This document shows positions 14,206 to 44,436 of a stretch of 64,000 nt of DNA, piece by piece. Numbering within the stretch: position 1 is the stretch's first letter; each line of letters begins with the position of its first letter. The translations under genes and the position numbers were made by a program. Origin of the DNA: Squalus acanthias (Eukaryota); contig CM059432.1 in assembly GCA_030390025.1 (NCBI GenBank), forward strand, positions 3,844,001 through 3,908,000. Reading direction: 5' to 3'. The notes under the pieces are model-generated. The model had not been told where the DNA came from. It made no database searches and saw only the letters and a list, made by a program, of their open reading frames with translations.

Positions 14206-14395
14206 GTGGAGCGGTTGCTAAACCCGAGACACTACACTAGTAGTGACTCCCACCCTCCCACCTCCTCTAACCTTTAGGGGTAGAGGGAATTTAAAAGGTA
14301 GGTTCGATTTTATATTTTGTTTTCAGGGACTTAACTCCTGGACCTAAGATAAATAAGTTTAAATTTTAGTAATAAAGTAACATAAGGGTTAAGTC

Positions 14396-15340
14396 ATGAC
14401 AGGAAGTCTCGGACCCGTTTCATGCTCCTCCTGTGCCATGTGGGAAACCAGGGACACTTCCAGTGTCCCTGACAACTACTTGTGCGGGAAGTGTGTCCAG
14501 CTGCAGCTCCTGACAGCCCGCATGGCGGTGCTGGAGCTGCGGGTGGACTCACTCTGGAGCATGCACGATGCCGAGAACTCGGTGAATCGCTCATTTAGTG
14601 AGTTGTCCACACCGCAGGTAAAGGCTAGGACAGACAGTGAATGGGTGACCAAGAAGCAGGGCAATATCAGGAAGGTAGTGCAGGAGTCCCCTGTGGTCAT
14701 CTCCCTCCAAAACAGGTATGCCGCTTTGGATACTGTTGGGGGAGATGGCCTACCAGGGGAAGGCACTAGCAGCCAGGTTCATGGCACCATGGCTGGCTCT
14801 GCTGCACAGCAGGGCGGGAAAAAGAGTGGTAGGGCTATAGTGATAGGGGACTCAATTGTAAGGGGAATAGACAGGAGTTTCTGTGGCCGCAACCGAGATT
14901 CCAGGATGGTATGTTGCCTCCCTGGTGCAAGGGTCAAGGATGTCTCGGAGCGGCTGCAGAACATTCTGAAGAGGGAGGGTGAACAGCCAGCTGTCGTGGT
15001 GCATGTAGGTACCAACGATATAGGTAAAAAGCGGGAAGAGGTCCTACAAGCAGAATTTAGGGAGCTAGGAGCTAAATTAAAAAGTAGGACCTCTAAGGTA
15101 GTAATCTCTGGATTGCTACCAGGGCCACGTGCTAATCAGAATAGAGAGAACAGGATAGTGAGATTGAATACGTGGCTTGAGCAGTGGTGCAGGAGGGAGG
15201 GATTCAAATTCCTGAGGCATTGGAACCAGTTCTTGGGGAAGTGGGACCTGTACAAAAGGGACGGTCTGCACTTGGGCAGGACTGGAACCGATGTCCTCGG
15301 GGTAATATTTGCTAAAGCAGTTCGGGAGGATTTAAACTAA
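14396..15340 (+). CDS. CR1 ORF1p: Cys-rich zinc finger/leucine zipper plus SGNH esterase domain
   Basis: CxxC...CxxC followed by heptad leucines; GDSIVRG, HVGTND and DGLH esterase blocks; 314 aa with no stops. Confidence 0.92.
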   Translation: MTGSLGPVSCSSCAMWETRDTSSVPDNYLCGKCVQLQLLTARMAVLELRVDSLWSMHDAENSVNRSFSELSTPQVKARTDSEWVTKKQGNIRKVVQESPVVISLQNRYAALDTVGGDGLPGEGTSSQVHGTMAGSAAQQGGKKSGRAIVIGDSIVRGIDRSFCGRNRDSRMVCCLPGARVKDVSERLQNILKREGEQPAVVVHVGTNDIGKKREEVLQAEFRELGAKLKSRTSKVVISGLLPGPRANQNRENRIVRLNTWLEQWCRREGFKFLRHWNQFLGKWDLYKRDGLHLGRTGTDVLGVIFAKAVREDLN

Positions 15341-15387: not shown

Positions 15388-18324
15388 ATGCAGTCAGAAA
15401 CAAATGTTAGAAGGGTGAGAAACAATAGGGGAAGGCCGAGTAAACAAAGGCAAGAAACACAAAGGGCCATACTAAATCATAAGTCTAAAAGGACAAAGGA
15501 TGTTAATAAAACAAGCCTAAAGGCTCTGTGTCTTAATGCAAGGAGTATCCGTAATAAGGTGGATGAATTGACTGTGCAAATAGATGTTAACGGATACGAT
15601 GTGATTGGGATTACAGAGACGTGGCTCCAGAACAATCAAGGCTGGGAACTGAACATCCAGGGGTATTCAACATTCAGAAAGGATAGAATAAAAGGAAAAG
15701 GGGGTGGGGTAGCATTGCTGGTTAAAGAGGAGATTAATGCAATAGCTAGGAAGGACATCAGCTTGGAGGATGTGGAATCAATATGGGTTGAGCTGCAGAA
15801 CACCAAAGGGCAGAAAACGTTAGTGGGAGTTGTGTACAGACCTCCAAACAGCAGTAGTGAGGTGGGGGAGGGTATGAAACAGGAAATCAGAGGAGCATGC
15901 AAAAAAGGCACGGCAGTTATCATGGGTGACTTTAATATGCATATAGATTGGGCTACTCAAACTGGAAGCAATACGGTGGAGGAGGATTTCCTGGAGTGTT
16001 TAAGGGATGGTTTCCTAAACCAATATGTTGAGGAACCAACTCGAGGGGAGGCCATCCTGGACTGGGTGTTGTGTAATGAGGAGGGACTAATCAGCAATCT
16101 TGTGGTACGAGGCCCCCTGGGGAAGTGTGACCATAGTATGGTGGAGTTCTACATTAGGATGGAGAAGGAAACAGTTAAGTCAGAGACCATGGTCCAGAAC
16201 TTAAATAAGGGCAACTTTGAGGTTATAAGGCGTGAATTGGCGAGGTTAAATTGGCAAGCGATATTTAAGGGGCTATCAGTGGAAGGGCAATGGCAGACAT
16301 TTAGAGATCGCATGGATGAACTACAACAATTGTACATCCCGGTCTGGCGTAAAAATAAAAAAGGGAAGGTGGCTCAACCATGGCTAACAAGGGAAATCAG
16401 GGATAGTATTAAAACCAAGGAAGTTGCATACAAATTGGCCAGAAGTAGCAGCAAACCCGGGGACTGGGAGAACTTCAAAACTCAGCAGAGGAGGACGAAG
16501 GGTTTGATTAGGGCAGGGAAAATAAAATATGAAAGGAAGCTTGCAGAGAACATTAAAATGGACTGCAAAAGCTTCTATAAATATGTAAAAAGAAAGAGGT
16601 TAGTAAAAACAAACGTAGGTCCCCTGCAGTCGGAAACAGGGGAAGTCGTAATGGGGAACAAGGAAATGGCAGATCAATTGAACAAGTACTTTGGTTCGGT
16701 GTTTACTGTGGAAGACACACACAACCTGCCGGAAATAAAAGGGGTCAGAGGATCTGGTAAGAGGGAGGAGCTGAGGGAAATCCTTATTAGTCGGGAAAAG
16801 GTATTGGGGAAATTGATGGGACTGAAGGCTGAAAAATCCCCGGGGCCTGATGGTCTGCATCCCAGAGTACTTAAGGAGGTGGCCTTGGAAATAGTGGATG
16901 CATTGACGATCATTTTCCAACATTCCTTAGACTCTGGATCAGTTCCGATGGAGTGGAGGGTGGCCAATGTAACCCCTCTTTTTAAAAAAGGAGGGAGGGA
17001 GAAAGCAGGGAATTATAGACCGGTCAGCCTGACATCGGTCGTGGGTAAAATTATGGAAGCAATTATTAAAGATGTCATAACAGACCATTTGGAAAGTGGC
17101 GACATGATAGGTCCAAGTCAGCATGGATTTGTGAAAGGGAAATCATGCTTGACAAATCTTCTGGAATTTTTTGAGGATGTTTCCAATAGGGTGGACAGGG
17201 GGGAACCAGTAGATGTGGTGTATTTGGACTTTCAGAAGGCCTTCGACAAGGTCCCACACAAGAGATTGGTGAGCAAAGTTAAAGCACATGGGATTGGGGG
17301 TAATGTGTTGACGTGGATTGAGAACTGGTTGGCACACAGGAAACAAAGAGTAGGAGTAAATGGGTACTTTTCAGAATGGCAGGCAGTGACCAGCGGAGTA
17401 CCGCAGGGTTCGGTGCTGGGACCCCAGCTGTTTACATTATATATTAATGATTTGGACGAAGGGATTAAATGTAATATCTCCAAATTTGCGGATGACACTA
17501 AATTGGGAGGCAGTGTGAACAATGAGGAGGATGCTAGGAGGCTACAGAGTGACTTGGACAGGTTGGGTGAATGGGCAAATGTATGGCAGATGAAGTACAA
17601 TGTGGATAAATGTGAGGTTATCCACTTTGGTGGTAAAAATAGAGAGGCGGACTATTACCTGAATGGTGGCAGATTAGGGAAAGGGGACGTGCAACGAGAC
17701 CTGGGCGTCATGGTACATCAGTCACTGAAGGTGGGAATGCAAGTGCAGCAGGCAGTCAAGAAAGCAAACGGAATGATGGCCTTCATAGCAAGGGGATTTG
17801 AGTACAGGAGTAGGGAGGTGATGCTACAGTTGTACAGGGCCTTGGTGAGGCCACACCTGGAGTATTGTGCGCAGTTTTGGTCTCCTAACTTAAGGAAGGA
17901 CATTCTTGCTATTGAGGGAGTGCAGCGAAGGTTCACTAGATTGATTCCTGGGATGGCCGGACTGACATATCAAGAAAGATTGGGTCAACTGAACTTGTAT
18001 CCTCTGGAGTTCAGAAGAATGAGGGGGGATCTTATAGAGACATTTAAAATCCTGACTGGTTTAGACAAATTAGATGCAGGCAGAATGTTCCCAATGGTAG
18101 GGAAAACTAGAACCAGGGGTCACAGTCTAAGGATTAAGGGGAAGCCATTTAGGACTGAGCTGAGGAGGAACTTCTTCACCCAGAGAGTGGTGAATCTATG
18201 GAATTCTCTTCCACAGAAGGTTGTTGAGGCCAGTTCGCTAAATATATTCAAAAGGGAGTTAGATATAACACTCACAACTAAGGGGATCAAGGGGTATGGC
18301 GAGAAAGCAGGAATGGGGTACTGA
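15388..18324 (+). CDS. CR1 ORF2p: APE endonuclease plus reverse transcriptase (frame open from at least 15331)
   Basis: NARS, ITETW, GDFN, CDH (APE); YRPVSLTS, LDFQKAFD, GVPQGSVLGP, KFADD (RT); 978 aa with no stops. Confidence 0.95.
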   Translation: MQSETNVRRVRNNRGRPSKQRQETQRAILNHKSKRTKDVNKTSLKALCLNARSIRNKVDELTVQIDVNGYDVIGITETWLQNNQGWELNIQGYSTFRKDRIKGKGGGVALLVKEEINAIARKDISLEDVESIWVELQNTKGQKTLVGVVYRPPNSSSEVGEGMKQEIRGACKKGTAVIMGDFNMHIDWATQTGSNTVEEDFLECLRDGFLNQYVEEPTRGEAILDWVLCNEEGLISNLVVRGPLGKCDHSMVEFYIRMEKETVKSETMVQNLNKGNFEVIRRELARLNWQAIFKGLSVEGQWQTFRDRMDELQQLYIPVWRKNKKGKVAQPWLTREIRDSIKTKEVAYKLARSSSKPGDWENFKTQQRRTKGLIRAGKIKYERKLAENIKMDCKSFYKYVKRKRLVKTNVGPLQSETGEVVMGNKEMADQLNKYFGSVFTVEDTHNLPEIKGVRGSGKREELREILISREKVLGKLMGLKAEKSPGPDGLHPRVLKEVALEIVDALTIIFQHSLDSGSVPMEWRVANVTPLFKKGGREKAGNYRPVSLTSVVGKIMEAIIKDVITDHLESGDMIGPSQHGFVKGKSCLTNLLEFFEDVSNRVDRGEPVDVVYLDFQKAFDKVPHKRLVSKVKAHGIGGNVLTWIENWLAHRKQRVGVNGYFSEWQAVTSGVPQGSVLGPQLFTLYINDLDEGIKCNISKFADDTKLGGSVNNEEDARRLQSDLDRLGEWANVWQMKYNVDKCEVIHFGGKNREADYYLNGGRLGKGDVQRDLGVMVHQSLKVGMQVQQAVKKANGMMAFIARGFEYRSREVMLQLYRALVRPHLEYCAQFWSPNLRKDILAIEGVQRRFTRLIPGMAGLTYQERLGQLNLYPLEFRRMRGDLIETFKILTGLDKLDAGRMFPMVGKTRTRGHSLRIKGKPFRTELRRNFFTQRVVNLWNSLPQKVVEASSLNIFKRELDITLTTKGIKGYGEKAGMGY

Positions 18325-19093
18325 GGTAGCATGTTTAGCCATGAACGCATTGAATGGCGGTGCAGGCTCGAAGGACCGAATGGTCTACTCCTGTACCTAT
18401 TTTTTCTATGTTTCAACGACTGAGCATCCACAGCCCTCTGGGGTAGAGAATTCCAAAGATTCACCACCGTCTGAGTGAAGAAATTCCTCCTCATCTCTGT
18501 TCTAACTGGCCGACCCCTTATCCTCAGATTATGCCCCCTGGTTCTAGACTCTCCAGCCAGGGGCAACAGCCTCTCAGCATCTACCCTGTCAATCCCCATC
18601 CACCACCTTAAACATTCACTCCCTCCACCACCGGCGCACCGTGGCTGCAGTGTGTACCATCTACAAGATGCACTGCAGCAACTCACCAAGGCTTCTTCGG
18701 CAGCACCTCCCAAATCCGCGACCTCTACCACCTAGAAGGACAAGGGCAGCAGGAGTATGGGAACACCACCACCTCCAAGTCACACACCATCCTGACTTAG
18801 AAATATATCACCGATCCTTCATCGTCGCTGGGTCAAAATCCTGGAACTCCCTCCCTAACAGCACTGTGGGAGCACCTTCACCACACGGACTGCAGCGGTT
18901 CAAGAAGGCGGCTCACCACCACCTTCTCAAGGGCGATTAGGGGATGGGCAATAAATGCTGGCCTTGCCAGTGACGCCCACATCCCGTGAATGAATAAACA
19001 GAATCCCCCTCAGAATCTTAGATGTTTCAATGAGATCACCTCTCAGTCTTCTAAAATGAATGCATGCACCAGCGAAAATTCCCAGCTTAAGTC

Positions 19094-24180: not shown

Positions 24181-24749
24181 GGTTCGGGTTCCCAACCGTC
24201 CCGGAATGACTGCGGGTTTCCCTCCCGCCCCCCCACTGTTGCCTCCAGCAGCCCGGGGAATCAGATTTAAATTTCCCGCTGCAGGGCGCCCCCCAGCTCC
24301 GTGATGTCACCCGTCGTGAGCCGGGACCGTGGGAAGTGCAGTCAGGAATCAGGAGGGCTCGGGAATCTTGGGCAAACCCGTCTCAGGAATCGGGGAGTCT
24401 CGGCGTGACTCACAAGGTCAACTCACTGTTGTGTTTATGGGACTCGCACAGCTGACTGCCACTAAAACTACATCATTACAGAGCAGTGATCAGAGGCAGG
24501 AGCAAGAGCAGGTTGTCGTCTGTGGGTTAAATCACTGACACCAGGCTCGGAACTCTCCAATCGGGTCAGGGCGGCTACCGCCAGCTTTCGCACCCGACAG
24601 TCTGGTTTGTGTGAGCACTGCTTGGAAATCAGACACGGAACTTCGTCACCAACAGGGTCAGCTCTTGATGTGTTATCCTGATGTACCCCTGGAGTCACAT
24701 GGGGCTCTGAAATGGGGGGCTTCCTCAGTTACCTCTATTCCCTTACTCG

Positions 24750-25280
24750 ATCTCCCCTCGGTTTCCCCTTCTACCCCCCTCGGTTTCCCCCTCTCCCCCC
24801 CTCGGTTTCCTCCTCTCTCTCGGTTTCCCCCCCCGCTCTCTCTCTCTCTCGGTTTCCCCCCCCGCTCTCTCTCTCTCTCGGTTCCCCCCCCCCGCTCTCT
24901 CTCTCTCTCTCGGTTCCCCCCCCCCGCTCTCTCTCTCTCTCGGTTCCCCCCCCCCGCTCTCTCTCTCTCTCTCTCTTGGTTCCCCCCCCCCCCCCGCTCT
25001 CTCTCTCTCTCTCTCGGTTTCACCCCCCCCGCTCTCTCTCTCTCTCGGTTCCCCCCCCCGCTCTCTCTCTCTCTCTCGGTTTCCCCCCCCCCCCGCTCTC
25101 TCTCTCTCTCTCTCGGTTTCCCCCCCCCCGCTCTCTCTCTCTCTCGGTTCCCCCCCCCCCCCCGCTCTCTCTCTCTCTCGGTTTCCCCCCTCGCTCTCTC
25201 TCTCTCTCTCGGTTTGCCCCCACGCTCTCTCTCTCTCTCTCTCTCGTTTCCCCCCACGCTCTCTCTCTCTCTCTCGGTTT

Positions 25281-25313
<33 letters not shown>

Positions 25314-25656
25314 CGGTTTGCCCCCACGCTCTCTCTCTCTCTCGGTTCCCCCCTCTCTCTCTCTCTCTCGGTTCCCCCCCCCGCTCTCTCTCTCTCTCTC
25401 TCTCTCTCTCGGTTTCCCCCCCCGCTCTCTCTCTCTCTCTCGGTTTCCCCCCCCCGCTCTCTCTCTCTCGGTTTCCCCCCACGCTCTCTCTCTCTCTCTC
25501 TCGGTTTCCCCCCCCCGCTCTCTCTCTCTCTCTCGGTTTCCCCCCACGCTCTCTCTCTCTCTCTCTCTCTCCCTCTCGGTTTCCCCCCCCGCTCTCTCTC
25601 TCTCTCTCTCTCGGTTTCCCCCCACGCTCTCTCTCTCTCTCTCGGTTCCCCCCCCC

Positions 25657-25690
<34 letters not shown>

Positions 25691-25692
25691 TT

Positions 25693-25725
<33 letters not shown>

Positions 25726-26115
25726 CGGTTTGCCCCCACGCTCTCTCTCTCTCTCGGTTCCCCCCTCTCTCTCTCTCTCTCGGTTCCCCCCCCGCTCTCT
25801 CTCTCTCTCTCTCGGTTTCCCCCCACGCTCTCTCTCTCTCTCTCGGTTCCCCCCTCTCTCTCTCTCTCTCAGTTCCCCCCACGCTCTCTCTCTCTCTCTC
25901 TCTCTCGGTTTCTCCCGCTCTCTCTCTCTCTCTCGGTTCCCCCCCCCCCACTCTCTCTCTCTCTCTCGGTTCCCCCCTCTCTCTCTCTCGGTTTCCCCCC
26001 ACGCTCTCTCTCTCTCTCTCTCTCGGTTTCTCCCGCTCTCTCTCGCTCTCTCGGTTCCCCCCCCCCACTCTCTCTCTCTCTCTCGGTTCCCCCCTCTCTC
26101 TCTCGGTTTCCCCCC

Positions 26116-26154
<39 letters not shown>

Positions 26155-26288
26155 TTCCCCCCCGCTCTCTCTCTCTCTCTCGGTTTCCCCCACGCTCTCT
26201 CTCTCTCTCTCTCTCGGTTCCCCCCTCTCTCTCTCTCTCGGTTTCCCTCCACGCTCTCTCTCTCTCTCTCTCTCTCGGTTCCCCCCCC

Positions 26289-26326
<38 letters not shown>

Positions 26327-27061
26327 TCCCCCCCCCGCTCTCTCTCTCTCGGTTTCCCCCCACGCTCTCTCTCTCTCTCTCTCGGTTCCCCCCCCCGCTC
26401 TCTCTCTCTCTCTCGGTTTCCCCCCACGCTCTCTCTCTCTCTCTCTCGGTTCCCCCCTCTCTCTCTCTCTCTCGGTTGCCCCCCCCGCTCTCTCTCTCTC
26501 TCTCTCGGTTTTCCCCCACGCTCTCTCTCTCTCTCGGTTCCCCCTCCGCTCTCTCTCTCTCTCAGTTCCCCCCACGCTCTCTCTCTCTCTCTCGGTTTCT
26601 CCCGCTCTCTCTCTCTCTCTCTCGGTTACCCCCCCACTCTCTCTCTCTCTCGGTTCCCCCCTCTCTCTCTCTCTCTCTCGGTTTCCCCCCACGCTCTCTC
26701 TCTCTCTCTCTCTCTCTCTCGGTTTCCCCCCCGCTCTCTCTCTCTCTCTCTCTCTCTCGGTTTCCCCCCCGCTCTCTCTCTCTCTCTCGGTTGCCCCCCA
26801 CGCTCTCTCTCTCTCTCTCTCGGTTCCCCCCTCTCTCTCTCTCTCGGTTTCCCTCCACGCTCTCTCTCTCTCTCTCTCTCTCTCTCGGTTCCCCCCTCTC
26901 TCTCTCTCTCTCTCTCTCTCGGTTTCCCCCCACGCTCTCTCTCTCTCTCTCTCTCTCTCGGTTTCCCCCCCCGCTCTCTCTCTCTCTCTCGGTTTCCCCC
27001 CACGCTCTCTCTCTCTCTCTCTCGGTTCCCCCCCCTCTCTCTCTCTCTCGGTTTCCCTCCA

Positions 27062-27099
<38 letters not shown>

Positions 27100-27224
27100 T
27101 TCCCCCCCCCGCTCTCTCTCTCTGTCTCGGTTTCCCCCACGCTCTCTCTCTCTCTCTCGGTTTCCCCCCCCGCTCTCTCTCTCTCCGGTTTCCCCCCCGT
27201 TCTCTCTCTCTCTCTTGGTTTCCC

Positions 27225-27256
<32 letters not shown>

Positions 27257-27457
27257 GTTTCCCCCCTCTCTCTCTCTCTCTTGGTTTCCCCCCTCTCTCT
27301 CTCGGTTTCCCCCCACTCTCTCTCTCTGTTTCCCCCCTCTCTCTCTGTCTGTTTCCCTCCTCTCTCTTTCTCTCTGTTTCCCCCCTCTCTCTCTCTCTCT
27401 CTCACTTGGTTTCCCCCTCTCTTTCTCTCTGTTTCCCCCCTCTCTCTCTCTCTGTTT

Positions 27458-27488
<31 letters not shown>

Positions 27489-27742
27489 CGGTTCCCCCCC
27501 CCCCCCCGCTCTCTCTCTCTCTCTCTCTCGGTTTCCCCCCCGCTCTCTCTCTCTCTCTCTTGGTTTCCCCCCTCTCTCTCTCTCTGTTTCCCTCCTCTCT
27601 CTCTCTCTCTGTTTCCCCCCTCTCTCTCTCTCTCTGTTTCCCCCCTCTCTCTCTCTCTCTGTTTCCCCCCTCTCTCTCTCTCTCTCTTGGTTTCCCCCTC
27701 TCTCTCTCTCTCTGTTTCCCTCCTCTCTCTTTCTCTCTGTTT

Positions 27743-27785
<43 letters not shown>

Positions 27786-27975
27786 CCCCCCCCCCCCTCT
27801 CTCTCTCTGTTTCCCCGGCTCTCTCTCTCTCTCTCTCGCTCGGTTTTCCCCCTCTCTCTCTCTCTGTTTCCCCTCTCTCTCTCAGTTACCCCCCTCTCTC
27901 TCTCTCTGTTCCCCCCCCTCTCTCTCTCTCTCTCTCTCTCGGTTTCCCCCCTCCTCTCTCTCTCTCTCTCGGTTT

Positions 27976-28018
<43 letters not shown>

Positions 28019-28050
28019 TTCCCCCCTCCTCTCTCTCTCTCTCTCGGTTT

Positions 28051-28082
<32 letters not shown>

Positions 28083-28313
28083 TTTCCCCCCCACTCTCTC
28101 TCTCTCTCTGTTTCCCCCCCCCCTCTCTCTCTCTCTGTTTCCCCCTCTCTCTCTCTCTGTTTCCCCCCTCTCTCTCTTTCGGTTCACCCCCGCCCCCCCC
28201 CCGCTCTCTCTCTCGGTTTCCCCCCCGCTCTCTCTCTCTCTCTCTCTCTCTCGGTTTCCCCCGCGCTCTCTCTCTCGGTTTCCCCCCCGCTCTCTCTCTC
28301 TCAGTTTCTCCCC

Positions 28314-28350
<37 letters not shown>

Positions 28351-29405
28351 CCCATCCCGCTCTCTCTCTCTCGGTTCCCCCCCCTCTCTCGCTCTGTTTC
28401 CCCACCCCCCGCCCTCTCTCTCTCTGTTCCCCCCCTCTCTCTCTCTCGGTTCCCCCCCCCCCCACTCTCTCTCTCGGTTTCCCCCTCTCTCTCTCTCTCT
28501 CTCTCTGTTTCCCCCCCTCTCTCTCTCTCTCTCTCTCTCAGTTTCCCCCCCTCTCTCTCTCTGTTCCCCCCTCTCTCTCTCTCGGTTTCCCCCCCCCACT
28601 CTCTCTCTCGGTTTCCCCTCTCTCTCTCTCTCTCTCTCTGTTTCCCCCCCTCTCTCTCTCTCTCTCGGTTTCCCCCCCCACCCATCTCTCTCTCTCTGTT
28701 CCCCCCCTCTCTCTCTCTGTTCCCCCCTCTCGCTCTCTCTGTCCCCCCCTCTCGCTCTCTCTGTTCCCCCCCCTCACTCTCTCTGTTCCCCCCCCCCCCC
28801 CCGACTCTCTCTCTCGGTTTCCCCCCCTCTCTCTCTCTCTCTCGGTTTCCCCCCCCCCTCTCACTCTTGGTTTCCCCCCTCCCTCTCTCTCTCTCTGTTC
28901 CCCCCACCCCCTCTCTCTCTCTCCCCCCGCTCTCTCTCTCCCCCTCTCTCTCTCCCTCCCCTCTCTCTCTCTCTCTCTCTCTTCCCCCCCTCTCTCTCTC
29001 TCTCTCTCTCTTCCCCCCCTCTCTCTCTCTCTCCCCTACCTCTCTCTCTCCCCTCCCTCTCTCTCTCTCTCTCCCTCTCTCTCCCCCCTCCCTCTCTCCC
29101 TCTCTCTCCTCTCTCTCTCTCTCTCCCCCCTCTCTCTCTCACCCCCTCCCTCTCTCTCCCCCTCCCTCTCTCTCTCTCTCTCTCCCTCTCCCTCCTCCCT
29201 CTCTCCCCCTCCTCCCTCTCTCCCCCTCCCCTCCCTCTCTCCCTCTCCTCCCCCTCCCCTCCCCCCTCTTCCTCCCTTTCCCCCTCTCCCCCATCTAGCC
29301 CCCTTCCTTCCCCCTCCCCCTCCTTCCCCCTCCCCCCACCCCCCTCCTCCATCCCTTCCACCCTCCCTTTCCCCCCTTCCTCCCCCTGCCCCTCTCCTCC
29401 CCCCC
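24750..29405. repeat. About 4.65 kb polypyrimidine compound satellite [CGGTTT-Cn-G-(CT)n]
   Basis: Directly visible; the + strand is almost entirely C/T. Confidence 0.97.
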
Positions 29406-29442
29406 CATTGATAACACTCCCATGAAGCACCTTGGGACATTT

Positions 29443-31553: not shown

Positions 31554-32565
31554 CTTCTTCTTAGGCAGTCCCTCGGAACCGAGGATGACTTGCTCCCACA
31601 TTAAAAATGAGTTCTCAGGTGACTGCTGAGTCCAATGCGGGACCTACAGTCTCTGTCACAGGTAGGGCAGATGGTGGTTGAAGGGGCGGGTGGGTGGGGT
31701 GCTTGGGTTTACGTGCGCTCCTTCCGCTGTTTACGCTTGGCTTCCGCTTGCTCCCGGCGAAGAGACTCGAGGTGTTCGGCGCCTTCCCGGATGCTTCTCC
31801 TCCACTTTGTGCAGTCTTGGGCCAGGGATTCCCAGGTGTCAGTGGGGATGTTGCACTTTTTCAAGGAGGCTTTGGGGTGTCCTTGAAGCGTTTCCTCTGC
31901 CCACCTGGGGCTCTCTTGCCGTGCCGGAGCTCCGAGTAGAGCGCTTGTTTTGGGAGTCTCGTATCGGGCATGCGGACGATGTGACCTGTCCATCGGAGCT
32001 GATTGAGCGTGGTCAAAGCTTCCATGCTGGGGATGTTGGCCTGAGCGAAAACAGTGACGTTGGTGCGCCTATCCTGCCAATGGATTTGCAGGATCTTGCA
32101 GAGGCAGCGTTGGTGGTACCTCTCCAGAGCTTTGAGGTGCCTGCAGTACATGGTCCATGTCTCTGAGGCATACAGCAGGGCGGGTATCACTGCTGCTCTG
32201 TAGACCATGAGCTTAGTGCCGGGTTTGAGGTCCTGGTCTTCAAACAATCTCTTCCTCAGGCGACCGAAGGCTGCACTGGCACACTGAAGGCGGTGTTGGA
32301 CTTCGTCATCGACGTCTGCCCTTGTTGACAGTAGGCTCCCGAGGTATGGAAAGTGGTCCACGTTGTCCAAGGTCTTGTTGTGGATTTTGATAATCGGGGG
32401 GCAGTACTGTGTGGTGGGGGCAGGTTTGTAGCGGACCTTTGTCTTACGGATGTTTAGTGTAAGGCCTATGCTCTTGTACGCTTCGGTGAAGGTGTTGACG
32501 GTGGTTGGAGTTCGACCTCCGAGTGAGCGCAGACGCAAGCGTCGTATGCATACTTTAATTCTGTA
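31554..32565 (-). mobile_element. RTE-clade LINE, 5'-truncated
   Basis: YAYD (=YADD) remnant; FPYLGS, LLYASETWT, QLRWTGHIVRM, GGQRKRFKDT motifs; (AAG)n tail; 38-bp TSD. Confidence 0.9.
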
Positions 32566-33384
32566 ATTGCTGTGTGCAAATTGGCTGCCGTGTTTCCAAC
32601 ATTACAACAGTGACTACACTTCAAAAAAGTACTTAATTGGCTGTAAAGCGCTTTGTGACATCCTGAGGTCATGAAGGGGGTTATATAAAGACGTTCACCC
32701 ATCATCCCCTGTGCTCGCTGACCTTCATTGCCTCCTGGTTGAGCAACGCCTCGATTTTAAAATTGTCATCCCTATTTTCAAATCCCTCCATGGCCTCACC
32801 CCTCCCTATCTCTGTAACCTCCTCCAGCCCAACAACCCTCCGAGATCTCTGCGCTCCTCCAATCTGGCAGCTTGTTGTTGCGATTTTCTTTGATAACTTA
32901 ATTCTCTGAAGGCAGCAAATCTGAGATCAGCAGAGCGGGCCAATTCCAAGCTGAACTTTTTTACTCCTGCGATTGAATTCTGAAGACAGAAAGGACCGTT
33001 CTTCGGGGGGACACAAGCGACCTTTTCAAAAGCACGAGGAACCAGCCAAAGTCTGGCTTGAGTGTCGTTTGGAAAGTTAGCAGTTATTCAAAAGCATGCA
33101 GCCAACTTTCAGATTGTCAAAAGATGCATTAATGGCCTCAAAAGATCAGCAAAAAGGCAAATTGGCAACGCATTGCAAAATTCAAAACATCCCCAGGCGG
33201 ATTTCCAGAAAAAAAAAGCTTGAGAACATCAGAACCCATCTCAGCAGACGGAAGTGTGACAACAACAACCCGGTCCCCTCATCTCAGTCTGCTGAGGAAT
33301 CCAGCACGTCACACGGTGAGCTGCATGACCTCAGTTAGGTGGAGAGACTAGAGAAGCTGGGATTGTTCTCTTTTACAGTGTATT

Positions 33385-39832: not shown

Positions 39833-42255
39833 CCCTGCTGCACCTGCATGCTAACCTTCAGCGACTGGTGCACAAGGACATCCAGGTCTCGTTGCACTTC
39901 CCCTTTTCCCAATCTATTGCCGTTCAGATAATAATCTGTCTTCCTGTTTTTGCCACCGAAGTGGATAACCTCGCATTTATCCACATTACACTGCATTTGC
40001 CATGCATCTGCCCAATCACACAACCTGTCCAAATCATACTGGAGTTTCTCAGCATCCTCCTCACAGCACACACGCCCACCCAGCTTTGTGTCGTCTGCAA
40101 ACTTGGAGATATTACATCTAGTTCCCTCGTCTAGATCATTTATATATATTGTGAATAGCTGGGGTCCTAGCACCGATCCCTGCGGTACCCCACTAGTCAC
40201 TGCCTGCCACTCGGAAAAAGATCTGTTTATTCCAACTCTTTGCTTCCTGCCTGCCAACCAGTTCTCTATCCAAGACAGTACCTTACCCCCAATCCCATGT
40301 GCTTTAACTTTGCACGCTAATCTCTTATGCGGGACCTTATCGAAAGCCTTCTGAAAGTCCAAATACACCACATCCACTGGTTCTCCCTTATCTATTCTAC
40401 CAGTTACATCCTCAAAAAATTCCAGTAGATTAGTCAAGCATGATTTACCTTTTGTAAATCCATGTTGACTTTGTCCGATCCTGTCACTGTTTTCCAAGTG
40501 CTCTGCTATTACATCTTTTATAATGGACTCTAGCATTTTCCCCACTACCGATGTCAGGCTTACCCGTCTATAATTCCCTGTTTTCTCTCTCCCACCTTTT
40601 TCAAATAGTGGGGTTACATTAGCTACCCTCCAATCCATGGGAACTGTTCCAGAGTCTATAGAATTTTGGAAGATGACCAGCAATGCATCTACTATTTCTA
40701 GGGCCACTTCCTTAAGTACCCTAGGATGTAGATTATCAGGCCCTGGGGATTTATCGGCCTTCAATCCCGTCAATTTCCCTAACACTATTTCCCTACAAAT
40801 ACTGATTTCATTCAATTCCTCCCTCTCATTAGACCCTATGTTCCCCGACATCTCTGGGAGGTTATTTGTGTCCTCCTTTGTGAAGACAGAACCAAAGTAT
40901 GTATTTAATTGGTCTACCATTTCTTTATTCCCCATTATAAATTCCCCTGATTCTGACTGCAAGGGACCTATGCTTGACTTCATCAATCTTTTTCTCTTCA
41001 CATATCTATAGAAGCTTTTACAATCAGTTTTTATGTTCCCTGCAAGCTTACTCTCATAATCTATTTTCCCCCTCTTACTTAATCCCTTTGTCCTCCTTTG
41101 CTGAATCCTAAACTGCTCCCAATCCTCAGGTTTGCTGCTTTTTCTGGCCAAATTATATGTCCTCTCCTTGGATTTTATGCTATCCCTAATTTCCCTTGTT
41201 AGCCACGGTTGAGTCACCTTTTTTGTTTTATTTTTATGCCAAACAGGGATGAACAAATTCTGTAGTTCATCCATGCGATCTTTAAATGTTTGCCATTACC
41301 TATCCACCGTCAACCCTTTAAGTAACGTTCCCCAATCCATCCTAGCCAACTCGTGCCTCATACCATCATAGTTTCCTTTATTTAAATTCAGGACCCTAGT
41401 CTCTGAGTCAACTACTTCACTCTCCATCTTAATGAAGAATTCTATCATATTATGATCACTCCTCCCCAAGGGGCCTCGCACAACAAGATTGCTAATTAAT
41501 CCTTTCTCATTACATAATACCCAGTCTAAGATGGCCTGATCTCTAGTTGGTTCATCGACATATTGGTCCAGGAAACCATCCCGTATACACTCTAGGAATT
41601 CCTCCTCCACAGTATTGTTACTAATTTGGTTAGCCCAATCTATATGTAGATTAAAGTCACCCATGATAACTGCTGTGCCCTTATTGCACGCGTCTCTAAT
41701 TTCCCGTTTAATGCCATCCCCAACCTAAGCATTACTGTTTGTGGGTCTGTATACACCCTCCACTAACGTTTTCTGCCCTTTGGTATTTCTCAGCTCTGCC
41801 CATACAGATTCCACATCATCAGAGCTAATATCCTTCCTTACTATTGTGTTAATCTCCTCTTTAACCAGCAATGCTACCCCACCTCCTTTTCCTTTTTTCC
41901 TGTCCTTCCTGAATATTGAATACCCCTGGATGTTGAATTCCCAATCATGCTCACCCTGGAGCCATGTCTCCGTAATCCCAATTATATCATATCCGTTTAC
42001 ATCTATTTGCACAGCTAATTCATCCACCTTATTACGAATGCTCCTCGCATTAAGACACAAAGCCTTCAGGCTAGATTTTTTAACACTCTTAGTCATTTTA
42101 GAATTATTATTTACTGTGGCCCTGTTTGATTTACATCCTTGATTTCTCTGCCTTCCACTTTTGCTTTTCTCCTTCCTGTCTTTTGTTTCTATCCTTGCTT
42201 CCCTTTCCTCTGTCTCCCTGCACAGGTTCTCAACCCCCTACCATTTTAGTTTAAA
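39833..42255 (-). pseudogene. CR1 ORF2 (APE-RT) pseudogene
   Basis: Closely similar to 15388-18324 but with in-frame stops and C-terminal loss. Confidence 0.9.
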
Positions 42256-43196
42256 CCCTCCCCAACAGCACTAGCAAACACTCCCCCTAGGACATCGGTC
42301 CCGGTCCCGCCCAGGTGCAAACCGTCCAGTTTGTATTGGTCCCACCTCCCCCAGAACCAGTTCCAATGTCCCAGGAATTTGAATCCCTCCCCCTTACACC
42401 ATTCCTCTAGCCACGTATTCAGCTGAAATATCCTTCTATTTCTACTCTGACTAGCACGTGGCACTGGTAGCAATCCTGGGATTACTACCTTTGAGGTCCT
42501 ATTTTTTAATTTACCTCCTAACTCCCTATATTCAGCTTTTAGGACCTCATCCCGTTTTTTACCTATATCATTGGTACCTATATGCACCACAACAACTGGC
42601 TGTTCACCCTCCCCCTCCAGAATGCCCTGCAGCCGCCCCGAGACATCCTTGACCCTTGCACCAGGGAGGCAACATACCATCCTGGAGTCTCGTTTGCGGC
42701 CGCAGAAACGCCGATCTATTCCCCTTACAATAGAATCCCCTCTCACTATAGCTCTCCTGCTCTTTTTCCTCCCATCCTGTGCAGCAGGACCACCCATGGT
42801 GCCAGGAAGTTGGCTACTGCTGCCTTCCCCCGATAATCCATCTCCGTCAACAATATCCAAAGTGGTATATCTGTTTGAAAGGGGGATGGCCACAGGGGAC
42901 CCCTGCACTACCTGCCTGCGCCTACTACTCTGCCTGGTGGTCACCCATTCCCTTCCTGCCTGTGCAGCCTTTACCTGCAGTGTGACCAACTCCCTAAACG
43001 TGCTATCCATGATGTCCTCAGCATCACGAATGCTCCAGTATGTATCCATTCGCAGCTCCAGCGCCGCAATGCAATCTGTCAGTAGCTGCAGCTGGATACA
43101 CTTCCCACACACATGGCCGTCAGGGACACAGGAAGTGTCCCTGATTTCCCACATAGTGCAGGAGGAGCATGCCACGGGGCCGAGCTGTGCTGCCAT
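42246..43196 (-). CDS. CR1 ORF1p (zinc finger/leucine zipper plus SGNH esterase)
   Basis: 316 aa, colinear with 14396-15340; GDSIVRG, HIGTND and DGLH. Confidence 0.88.
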   Translation of the reverse strand: MAAQLGPVACSSCTMWEIRDTSCVPDGHVCGKCIQLQLLTDCIAALELRMDTYWSIRDAEDIMDSTFRELVTLQVKAAQAGREWVTTRQSSRRRQVVQGSPVAIPLSNRYTTLDIVDGDGLSGEGSSSQLPGTMGGPAAQDGRKKSRRAIVRGDSIVRGIDRRFCGRKRDSRMVCCLPGARVKDVSGRLQGILEGEGEQPVVVVHIGTNDIGKKRDEVLKAEYRELGGKLKNRTSKVVIPGLLPVPRASQSRNRRIFQLNTWLEEWCKGEGFKFLGHWNWFWGRWDQYKLDGLHLGGTGTDVLGGVFASAVGEGLN

Positions 43197-44436
43197 GACT
43201 TACCCTTTAATTAATTCAAATTAAATTAAATCAAATCAATACCACTAATTACACTATAATTAAATGATATACTCAAGGGCCCTTGTTTACTAGCACTCCC
43301 CGCTACACAACAGAGACCCTAGAAACTATAAACCACAAAAATTAAGTTTGGAAAAAAGCAAGAGAGAGAGAAATACTCACCAACCAATCACTTACCTGCT
43401 TTCTGGTGACGTTACATTTCGATTACTTTTTATTTCTTGCTGCTGCCGAGTCTTGGCCGCTCTCTCTCTGCTCGCTCTTTAACTCCTCGGTCTCCGCTCT
43501 CAGTCTTCACCCAGGACCGCTCTCGCTGCTGCTGCCGGTGAGTCTGGGCCGCTCTCTCTCTCCCCGCTCTTTAACTCCTCGGTCTCTGCGCTCAGTCTCC
43601 ACCCAGGGCCGCTCTCGCTCTCTCTTAATCCAATCTTTCGTTCTCTCTCTTCATTTCTCTTTCTGTACATGATTTGACTCTAATTCACCTGACTTCCTTC
43701 TCCGTCGTTCCTCTGTTTCTTTCTCACTCCTGAAATCTCATTGGTTAAGGAGATAGACTGTCGGTCCCGTCGTTCACCGGGGTCCCAGATGCCCTGTTAT
43801 CGGCTCGCACTCCCAGCAAGTTACAGCGCAAGTAGATTTCGAGCTGAAGGCTGCAGGAAGTAGTCTAACTAACGAGGCATGTCGCGAGAGGCCCCACTCC
43901 AGCAAGATCTGGTCCAATTAGTGCGACTAGCTTGTAGCAACTGAATTATCAAATTCCATTTTCACGATGTGGTTTTCCCAGACTTATTTCCTGTGTTTGA
44001 GAGACTGAATCCTGTGACAGAAAGGTGCTAGCTGTGTGGCACTCTCTCCCACAAAAAGCAGCAGATGCTGGGGCTCAATTATTAATTTCAAATCTGCGAT
44101 CAATACATTTTTGCTCGACAAGGAGATGGACCCAAGGTGGGTGGATGGAGTTCAGATGCAGATCAGCCATGATCTCATTGAATGGCGGAACAGGCTCGAG
44201 GGGCTGAATGACCTCCTCCTGCTCCGATATTCCTTTGATTCCATGCATTTTTCCATGAAAACTGAAAATCAGTAATCTTCACTAGAAGGAACACTCCTTT
44301 GGGTAGATACGAAGAGAGGCTAAAACAGTGCCATACCTTTTGATTAACAAAAGAAACAGGCAGGATTGGATCAACCTGAAACCTTTTAATTTTCCAAAGT
44401 CCCTTTGTAATGTAATTTTTCGATCTGAAAGCCACT

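What the first reader, a model, noticed from the sequence alone, without database searches (positions are those of the whole stretch)
42096..42255. Second, diverged CR1 keeps the same heptamer and an equal-length ATG-less linker
Seen: on the minus strand ORF1 ends GGT TTA AAC TAA (heptamer 42255-42249), and the -1 frame is again the ORF2 frame. The linkers are colinear without indels: FKLIWQGNGNLCSETGGSNMQSET...KRTKDVNKTSLKAL versus FKLKW*GVENLCRETEEREARIET...KMTKSVKKSSLKAL. The first in-frame Met is codon 20 in one copy and codon 54 in the other, so there is no shared start codon. Inference: peptide similarity upstream of any ATG suggests the linker is translated by frameshift. The TAG at 42240-42238 corresponds to CAG in the intact copy and fits decay of this multiply stopped copy.
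Basis: partly seen in the sequence, partly recalled or inferred. Interest (0 to 1): 0.7.

Follow-up and report, generated by a model that had tools for sequence, protein, structure and literature searches.

The report
Slippery junction in shark CR1 retrotransposon
A decayed copy of a common vertebrate jumping gene keeps the same virus-like slippery sequence between its two genes as intact shark and bird-type copies do, which suggests, without direct proof yet, that its copying enzyme is made when ribosomes slip back one base.

Summary
Observation confirmed. Copy B (minus strand) is a decayed CR1 LINE. Its esterase ORF1 ends T TTA AAC TAA (heptamer 42255-42249), ORF2 continues in the -1 frame, and the linker is colinear with intact copy A. 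The TAG at 42240 is private decay: family contigs read CAG at 99.4-100% of depth. Met54 is private too. The heptamer is exact in 15 of 22 bird-type CR1 junctions found through mid-ORF1 motifs, and 21 of 22 begin TTTA, although TTA makes up only 13 of 158 Leu codons. ORF1 ends in LN in 79 of 120 homologues from sharks to reptiles. Best reading (0.7): programmed -1 frameshifting gives an ORF1-ORF2 fusion. Reinitiation therefore remains possible (0.2). Not found in print for CR1 in nine searches; -1 frameshifting is reported for Dictyostelium LINEs. The scan noted the same idea elsewhere in this genome (e1-8041403).

The parts
42246..43196 (-). Copy B ORF1: N-terminal Cys-rich part plus SGNH/GDSL esterase, ending ...GEGLN-stop
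   Evidence: 70% aa identity to copy A ORF1; Pfam PF13472 E 2.6e-13
42249..42255 (-). Slippery heptamer T TTA AAC in X XXY YYZ phase with ORF1
   Evidence: no variant row at 42246-42255 among the 40 rows shown (24 rows hidden)
42246..42248 (-). ORF1 stop TAA directly after the heptamer (read as CTA, Leu, in the -1 frame)
42238..42240 (-). TAG at linker codon 6: private decay of family CAG
   Evidence: 790910/795912 (X1), 537789/538836 (X8) and 3683/3683 (X16) of depth carry the other letter
42229..42238 (-). G-rich element (two G runs, coding G-x-G) starting about 10 nt 3' of the heptamer; candidate stimulator; second run broken privately in copy B at 42230
   Evidence: (G at offsets 17-20 in 18, 20, 19 and 20 of 21)
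42070..42255 (-). 62-codon linker in the ORF2 (-1) frame, colinear with copy A
   Evidence: 0 gaps, 71% nt identity, dN/dS 1.14 over codons 4-62
42121..42123 (-). Codon 45: AGG in both window copies, ATG at 37-82% of family depth
42094..42096 (-). Codon 54 ATG: private change of copy B (family AGG, as in copy A)
   Evidence: 97.2%, 99.9%, 100%
39834..42069 (-). Copy B ORF2 body (APE endonuclease and RT), stops at 41727 and 41298, broken off at 39834
14396..15340 (+). Copy A ORF1 (esterase), ending ...REDLN-stop
15331..15337 (+). Copy A heptamer T TTA AAC, followed by TAA
15331..18324 (+). Copy A ORF2 frame, open from the heptamer to its stop; first ATG at 15388 (codon 20)

Best explanation
These are CR1 LINEs of the esterase-ORF1 type. 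Most ribosomes end ORF1 at the UAA. A minority, with tRNA-Leu and tRNA-Asn on U UUA AAC, slip back one base to UUU AAA, read the stop's first letters as CUA (Leu) and go on through a fast-evolving linker into the endonuclease and reverse transcriptase. This makes a small amount of ORF1-ORF2 fusion protein, like retroviral Gag-Pol. The slip may be helped by the adjacent stop and by a G-rich element about 10 nt downstream rather than by a classical pseudoknot. Shown: the sequence layout, its conservation, and that copy B's TAG and Met54 are private decay. Inferred: the slip itself, the fusion protein and any role of the G-rich element.
For: (1) DNA-level conservation. In 49 metagenome loci found through mid-ORF1 motifs (41 of 49 closest to a gull CR1 ORF1), 22 reach the ORF1 end. 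15 of 22 have exact TTTAAAC, 6 more begin TTTA and 1 has the junction deleted. In the registered set (20 loci plus 2 window copies) all 22 have T-TTA, whereas TTA is 13 of 158 Leu codons and T is 185 of 730 four-fold third positions in the same ORF1s. Shark and bird-type endonucleases are only 37-49% identical. (2) 79 of 120 ORF1 homologues end in LN, among them named sharks, rays, coelacanth, a bony fish, frogs, turtles, lizards and a snake. The residue before LN is one whose codon cannot end in T (K, E, Q, M, W) in only 3 of 79 (1 of 26 dereplicated), against 9 and 12 of 26 at the two positions before it (Fisher p 4.5e-4). (3) Four database proteins run from ORF1 straight into FKL plus Gly-rich residues (P0011, P0014, P0043 and the distant P0282). 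(4) Stop-free linkers of 40, 54, 69, 91 and 98 codons all keep the -1 phase from the heptamer. L016 (98 codons) and P0128 (69) have no Met before the endonuclease Asn. (5) With the private changes set aside, copy B's linker has no ATG before codon 198. (6) U_UUA_AAC is named among the most shift-prone heptamers on mammalian ribosomes (PMC5009743, passage).
Against: There is no direct evidence of slippage. Linker dN/dS is 1.14-1.34 between the window copies; in bird-type linkers pN/pS is 0.51-0.70 in the ORF2 frame against 0.61-1.08 in the other frames. The open frame is not significant on its own: P(no stop) is 0.063 in a neutral simulation, 0 of 26 segregating variants make a stop (p 0.24), and 7 of 26 are synonymous (p 0.20). 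No stimulatory hairpin: z-scores of 10 downstream 80-mers run from -1.99 to +1.95 with no shared fold. In-frame AUGs exist: codon 45 at 37-82% of depth, codon 20 in copy A, and codon 5 in 8 of 20 bird-type loci, including 4 of the 6 with a stop-free linker. The endonuclease is in phase in 9 of 15 loci; the other 6 are decayed copies with stops (register of L009 and L037 corrected by hand). Most loci come from one assembly and are not independent. Positions -6 and -7 also avoid K/E/Q/M/W (2 and 3 of 26), so helix geometry may add to the residue test.
Confidence: 0.7

Rival explanations
1. Termination-coupled reinitiation. Ribosomes stop at the ORF1 UAA/UAG and restart within a few bases in the -1 frame, at an AUG where there is one (bird codon 5) and AUG-independently elsewhere, as proposed for mammalian L1 and shown for SART1. 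ORF2p is then a separate protein.
For: Codon 5 of the -1 frame is ATG in 8, TTG in 5 and GTG in 2 of 20 bird-type loci. It explains the conserved phase and open linker as well as a frameshift does. L1 ORF2 is thought to start independently of its AUG (PMC5009743 passage); SART1 uses UAAUG coupling (PMC3708506 passage). No pseudoknot is needed.
Against: It does not explain why synonymous positions upstream of the stop are fixed as T-TTA (22 of 22 against 8% TTA usage). Codon 5 is TGG in both window copies and TCG in 3 of 20 loci. Codon 4 in the shark family is mostly AAA, with the letter needed for ATG at 1.0% and 0.7% of depth in X1 and X8 (17% in X16).
Confidence: 0.2
2. The C-terminal Leu-Asn is needed by the ORF1 protein, the heptamer is a by-product, and ORF2 starts at whichever linker AUG a subfamily has (codon 20, 45 or 5) by leaky scanning, reinitiation or a sub-genomic RNA.
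For: Linker dN/dS near 1. ATG45 has A at -3 and G at +4 and is common in the family. 6 of 7 stop-free linkers hold at least one Met.
Against: A protein constraint leaves Leu codon choice and the preceding third position free, yet both are fixed. About one Met per linker is expected by chance (70% in simulation), and positions are not shared (5, 19, 20, 23, 36, 44, 45). L016, P0128 and copy B's inferred source have none before the endonuclease Asn. LN stays terminal when the distance from the DGLHL motif changes (27, 31, 32, 39 residues).
Confidence: 0.07
3. The frames are joined at the RNA level, by splicing or by polymerase slippage that adds one base in the T or A run.
For: Database proteins with ORF1 fused to FKL exist.
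Against: The runs are only three bases long. No insertion or deletion row was listed for any run and no joint for the presumed RNA run X16 (tables 4 and 5). The fused proteins are single gene calls, best read as copy-specific indels or predictions.
Confidence: 0.03

Closest known systems
Vertebrate CR1 LINEs with type IVB esterase ORF1 (CR1 subgroup 7, PMC4120745; esterase structure PMC3905857)
   Same: ORF1 with Cys-rich N-terminus and SGNH esterase; ORF2 with APE and RT; abundant in sharks and rays (PMC13343379 passages).
   Different: No mechanism for ORF2 expression appears in the passages searched: 0 hits for 'frameshift' in PMC13343379, PMC3905857 and PMC4120745.
Dictyostelium TRE5-A / TRE3-A (APE-type LINEs)
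   Same: Two-ORF non-LTR elements said to require a -1 frameshift for ORF2 (PMC5911963, figure legend passage).
   Different: Unrelated ORF1, amoebal host and tRNA-gene targeting. I did not see the primary papers, their shift site or whether the shift was measured.
Viral -1 frameshift at U_UUA_AAC (coronavirus IBV) and retroviral gag-pol
   Same: Same heptamer in the same phase, upstream structural gene and downstream polymerase (PMC5009743 passages).
   Different: The stop follows directly, and no pseudoknot or stable hairpin is predicted. A conserved G-rich stretch lies about 10 nt downstream, at the spacing of the protein-bound CCCANCUCC motif of PRRSV (11 nt); that is an analogy only.
Mammalian L1 and silkworm SART1 ORF2 translation
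   Same: Bicistronic LINE RNA with low ORF2 output.
   Different: These use AUG-independent initiation (L1) or UAAUG stop-start coupling (SART1), and no slippery heptamer is named for them in those passages.

Membership tests
CR1 LINE, esterase-ORF1 type | ORF1 with SGNH esterase | tested here: met
   PF13472 in both copies; best homologues are shark and ray proteins
CR1 LINE, esterase-ORF1 type | ORF2 with APE endonuclease and RT | tested here: met
   PF03372 and PF00078 in both copies
CR1 LINE, esterase-ORF1 type | RT phylogeny places it in CR1 rather than L2 | not tested
   No tree built; the label rests on architecture, homologue list and recalled CR1 features
Programmed -1 ribosomal frameshift | X XXY YYZ heptamer in phase with the upstream ORF | tested here: met
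   T TTA AAC in both copies; 15 of 22 bird-type loci exact
Programmed -1 ribosomal frameshift | Downstream ORF open in the -1 frame from the heptamer | tested here: met
   Copy A and L001, L002, L003, L009, L012, L016; family CAG at codon 6
Programmed -1 ribosomal frameshift | Heptamer conserved beyond amino-acid need | tested here: met
   T-TTA in 22 of 22 against TTA in 13 of 158 Leu codons; residue test 1 of 26; loci not independent
Programmed -1 ribosomal frameshift | 3' stimulator (pseudoknot, stem-loop or bound protein) 5-11 nt downstream | tested here: inconclusive
   No shared stable hairpin in 10 junctions; pseudoknots and G-quadruplexes were not modelled; conserved G runs at offsets 17-20 and 24-27
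Programmed -1 ribosomal frameshift | No usable start codon for the downstream ORF | tested here: inconclusive
   None in L016, P0128 or copy B without its private change; present at codon 45 in part of the shark family and codon 5 in 8 of 20 bird-type loci
Programmed -1 ribosomal frameshift | Trans-frame product measured | not testable with these tools
   Needs reporter assay, ribosome profiling or mass spectrometry
Stop-start coupling (SART1 type) | Conserved AUG overlapping or next to the ORF1 stop in the ORF2 frame | tested here: not met
   Absent in both window copies; the ATG one base after the stop is in the third frame and varies; present at codon 5 in only 8 of 20 bird-type loci

The most novel reading that the evidence does not exclude
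The esterase-type CR1 LINEs of jawed vertebrates have for over 400 million years (recalled shark-bird divergence) made their reverse transcriptase as a Gag-Pol-like ORF1-ORF2 fusion. They do it by -1 frameshifting at U UUA AAC plus stop, stimulated by a short G-rich element (protein-bound or quadruplex) instead of a pseudoknot. This would be a new class of natural frameshift signal, and it would tether the enzyme to the membrane-binding esterase.
Probability: 0.3. Interest if true: 0.85.

Novelty: new variant of a known kind. Interest (0 to 1): 0.66.

Why it matters
How LINEs translate ORF2 is called unclear in print (PMC3708506), and CR1-group elements are the dominant retrotransposons of most vertebrates (PMC13343379 abstract). 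A conserved frameshift would give a precise, testable answer for this clade. It would change the predicted ORF2 protein from a free enzyme into an esterase-endonuclease-RT fusion, and it would mean that CR1 ORF2 annotations starting at the first Met are often cut inside the endonuclease. If the G-rich stretch is the stimulator, it would be a natural case of a signal that PMC5009743 (2016) lists as anticipated but not known.

Tried and rejected
No genome is held for the window, so no copy-by-copy survey with phasing was possible. A homologue search with the first 110 ORF2-frame residues scored none of 18 candidates. Scans of viral contigs found no relative; scans with the two-sequence shark alignment found none in metagenome or prokaryote contigs; a 38-sequence alignment was too diverse to search with. 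A codon-unbiased pattern scan for the ORF1 end was not run, so DNA-level conservation in amphibians, bony fish and reptiles is open; only protein ends were seen for them. Peptide similarity as proof of translation is rejected (dN/dS 1.14-1.34). Absence of stops among family variants is not significant. The ATG one base after the shark stop is rejected as ORF2 start: it lies in the third frame, opens 8 codons (A) or 4 (B), and varies in the family. A conserved stimulatory hairpin was not found. Raw-read run X22 laid only 6 reads and carries little weight. No structure or complex prediction was run, as it would not decide the question. Paper searches. PMC1356112 (Alisch 2006) is not held. The first CR1 sequence papers (Haas 1997, Kajikawa 1997, both recalled) and Repbase notes were not seen and may mention the overlap. 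No supplements were read.

Full report
Observation. The window holds two long copies of one LINE. Copy A is intact (ORF1 14396-15340, ORF2 frame open to 18324, + strand). Copy B is on the minus strand (ORF1 43196-42246, ORF2 broken off at 39834). Both ORF1s carry an SGNH esterase and both ORF2s an APE endonuclease and RT. The closest named ORF1 homologues are from a sawshark, skates and rays, so the host is taken to be a cartilaginous fish; no genome is held. Both ORF1s end T TTA AAC TAA, and the -1 frame is the ORF2 frame. The 186-nt linkers align with 0 gaps at 71% identity, against 11 gaps at 47% for 300 nt of 5'UTR. Met stands at codon 20 in A and 54 in B, and next at 182 or 198, beyond the LNARS (68) and ITETW (94) motifs. 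Copy B has three stops (42240, 41727, 41298).

I laid 4 of the 24 listed runs on 42020-42340 at 80% likeness. Depths are sums over contigs, not copy numbers; variants cannot be phased; 24 of 64 variant rows were hidden; the runs may include the window's own source. At 42240 the letter giving CAG holds 99.4% (X1), 99.8% (X8) and 100% (X16) of depth; X22 laid only 6 reads, and both reads at that place agree. So the TAG is private decay. Met54 is private too (AGG at 97.2%, 99.9%, 100%), as is the change at 42230 that breaks a G run. No row was shown for the heptamer or stop (42246-42255). Loose ends at 42246-42247 show further subfamilies that keep heptamer and stop and then diverge, reading by hand FKLIWQGDGH and FKLVCQGAGN (table 7). 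The linker is therefore AUG-free in some subfamilies only.

Is the linker under coding selection? Weakly at best. dN/dS between A and B is 1.14 (codons 4-62) and 1.34 (codons 4-53) in the ORF2 frame, against 0.14 in the endonuclease and 0.46 in the end of ORF1. Staying stop-free over 54 differences has probability 0.063 under a neutral model. 0 of 26 segregating variants make a stop (p 0.24) and 7 of 26 are synonymous (p 0.20). Three bird-type linkers give pN/pS 0.51-0.70 in the ORF2 frame and 0.61-1.08 in the others.

The heptamer is conserved as DNA. 25 lack the ORF1 end, 2 stop before the stop codon and 22 reach it. 15 of 22 have exact TTTAAAC (L009 and L037 after a hand correction of register), 6 begin TTTA with a decayed end, and L020 has the junction deleted; 12 of 22 have heptamer plus TAA or TAG. 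For per-position counts I dropped L020 and L037 and added the two window copies: all 22 have T, T, T, A, and 20, 18 and 18 have A, A, C. In the same ORF1s TTA is 13 of 158 Leu codons, AAC 20 of 42 Asn codons and T 185 of 730 four-fold third positions. Shark and bird-type endonucleases are 37-49% identical, so synonymous sites should be saturated (inference). At protein level, 79 of 120 listed ORF1 hits end in LN; 70 of the 102 with a DGLHL-like motif do so at a fixed distance, and five more at other distances. Named sources of LN-ending proteins include sharks, rays, coelacanth, a mormyrid, frogs, turtles, lizards and a snake; sturgeon and gull names come from their clusters. If the heptamer's first T is required, the residue before LN cannot be K, E, Q, M or W. 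It is one of these in 3 of 79 (1 of 26 dereplicated), against 9 and 12 of 26 at the two preceding positions (p 4.5e-4), though positions -6 and -7 are also low (2 and 3 of 26). The three exceptions are Glu, and PMC5009743 lists G_UU(A) as a tolerated start in equine arteritis virus. Four proteins run from ORF1 into FKL and a Gly-rich stretch, including the distant unnamed P0282, which shows the same overlap in further lineages.

Phase and start codons. Stop-free linkers put the endonuclease Asn at codon 40 (three loci), 54, 69, 91 and 98, all in the -1 phase. The endonuclease is in phase in 9 of the 15 loci that hold it; the other 6 are decayed and have stops, which an indel would itself cause. 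In the 7 stop-free linkers the first Met is at 5, 5, 5, 5, 20, 23 and absent (L016); P0128 has none in 69 codons. Codon 5 is ATG in 8, TTG in 5, TCG in 3, GTG in 2 and other in 2 of 20 bird-type loci, and TGG in both shark copies. This is the best evidence for the reinitiation rival, but it is not conserved. The -1 frame is closed a few codons upstream in both window copies, with no ATG between, so ORF2 cannot start before the heptamer there.

Stimulator. Ten downstream 80-mers show no shared hairpin (z -1.99 to +1.95). What is conserved is a pair of G runs: G at offsets 17-20 in 18, 20, 19 and 20 of 21, and at 24-27 in 14, 17, 18 and 16 of 21. They code G-x-G mostly with GGG. The first run starts about 10 nt after the heptamer, near the 11-nt spacing of the protein-bound PRRSV motif; G-quadruplexes stimulate frameshifting in synthetic constructs (PMC5009743 passages). 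A role here is conjecture. If the constraint is instead on the peptide, it lies upstream of every shark AUG seen and still implies translation from the junction.

Mechanism. Most likely (0.7) a -1 slip on U UUA AAC yields a low-level ORF1-ORF2 fusion ending ORF1 with Leu-Asn and going on Leu-Ile/Lys-Trp-Gln-Gly. Rivals are termination-reinitiation (0.2), incidental heptamer with internal AUG starts (0.07) and RNA-level joining (0.03). Slippage was not observed.

What is known. Nine searches (listings seen) found no paper proposing this for CR1. I read passages only. PMC5009743 (first 300,000 of 449,034 characters held) has no 'CR1' and describes L1 ORF2 initiation as AUG-independent. PMC13343379, PMC3905857 and PMC4120745 have no 'frameshift'. 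PMC3708506 calls the ORF2 mechanism unclear and cites UAAUG coupling in SART1. PMC5911963 says TRE5-A and TRE3-A need a -1 frameshift. PMC5405496 suggests +1 frameshift, reinitiation or readthrough for Paramecium LINEs. PMC7175516 and PMC5006619 added nothing on this point. Subscription papers on the first CR1 sequences and Repbase notes were not seen, and no supplements were read. This scan noted the same idea at another place in this genome (e1-8041403) and for a Penelope element (e1-7814081); these are unchecked notes, not support. I had reached the reading before seeing them and took the TRE lead from the first.

Verdict. The feature is real, and copy B is an ordinary decayed copy that serves as a useful second witness. 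The family is known and the recoding type is known; their combination is not found in print and is directly testable. New variant of a known kind; interest 0.66.

Noticed in passing
window 24539-29425: About 5 kb of CT-rich low-complexity tandem repeat with extreme strand skew; it gives long spurious ORFs.
   Followed up: no
window 43400-43640 (-): The 5'UTR of copy B holds GA-rich repeated units; the 300 nt before ORF1 do not align with copy A (47%, 11 gaps), suggesting leader replacement between subfamilies.
   Followed up: partly
window 14383-14398 (+) and 43209-43194 (-): Similarity between the copies starts about 13 nt before the ORF1 ATG, with a shared short motif resembling a splice donor (recalled consensus) just upstream of the start.
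   Followed up: no
window 39834 (-): Copy B breaks off inside the RT C-terminal part and runs into unrelated sequence; the 3' end is not next to it.
   Followed up: partly
window 18413-18900, 504-1109, 31861-32601: Fragments of other LINE types abut or lie near the CR1 copies, including an inverted CR1 3' piece right after copy A.
   Followed up: no
P0099, P0101, P0109: Cyprinid esterase ORF1s with a DGIHP/DGLHP motif (probably the L2 branch; label recalled) end in AET or VCT instead of LN, so that branch may couple ORF2 differently.
   Followed up: no
P0094, P0096, P0097, P0100, P0282: Distant unnamed esterase ORF1s on long ENA contigs end in LN at other distances from the catalytic motif, and one runs into FKL; the signal may be older than vertebrates, but the sources give no taxon.
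   Followed up: partly
P0012, P0014, P0048, P0076, P0089: Several database host-gene isoforms (RPS24, HAO2, steryl-sulfatase and others) are gene models that have taken in CR1 ORF1.
   Followed up: no
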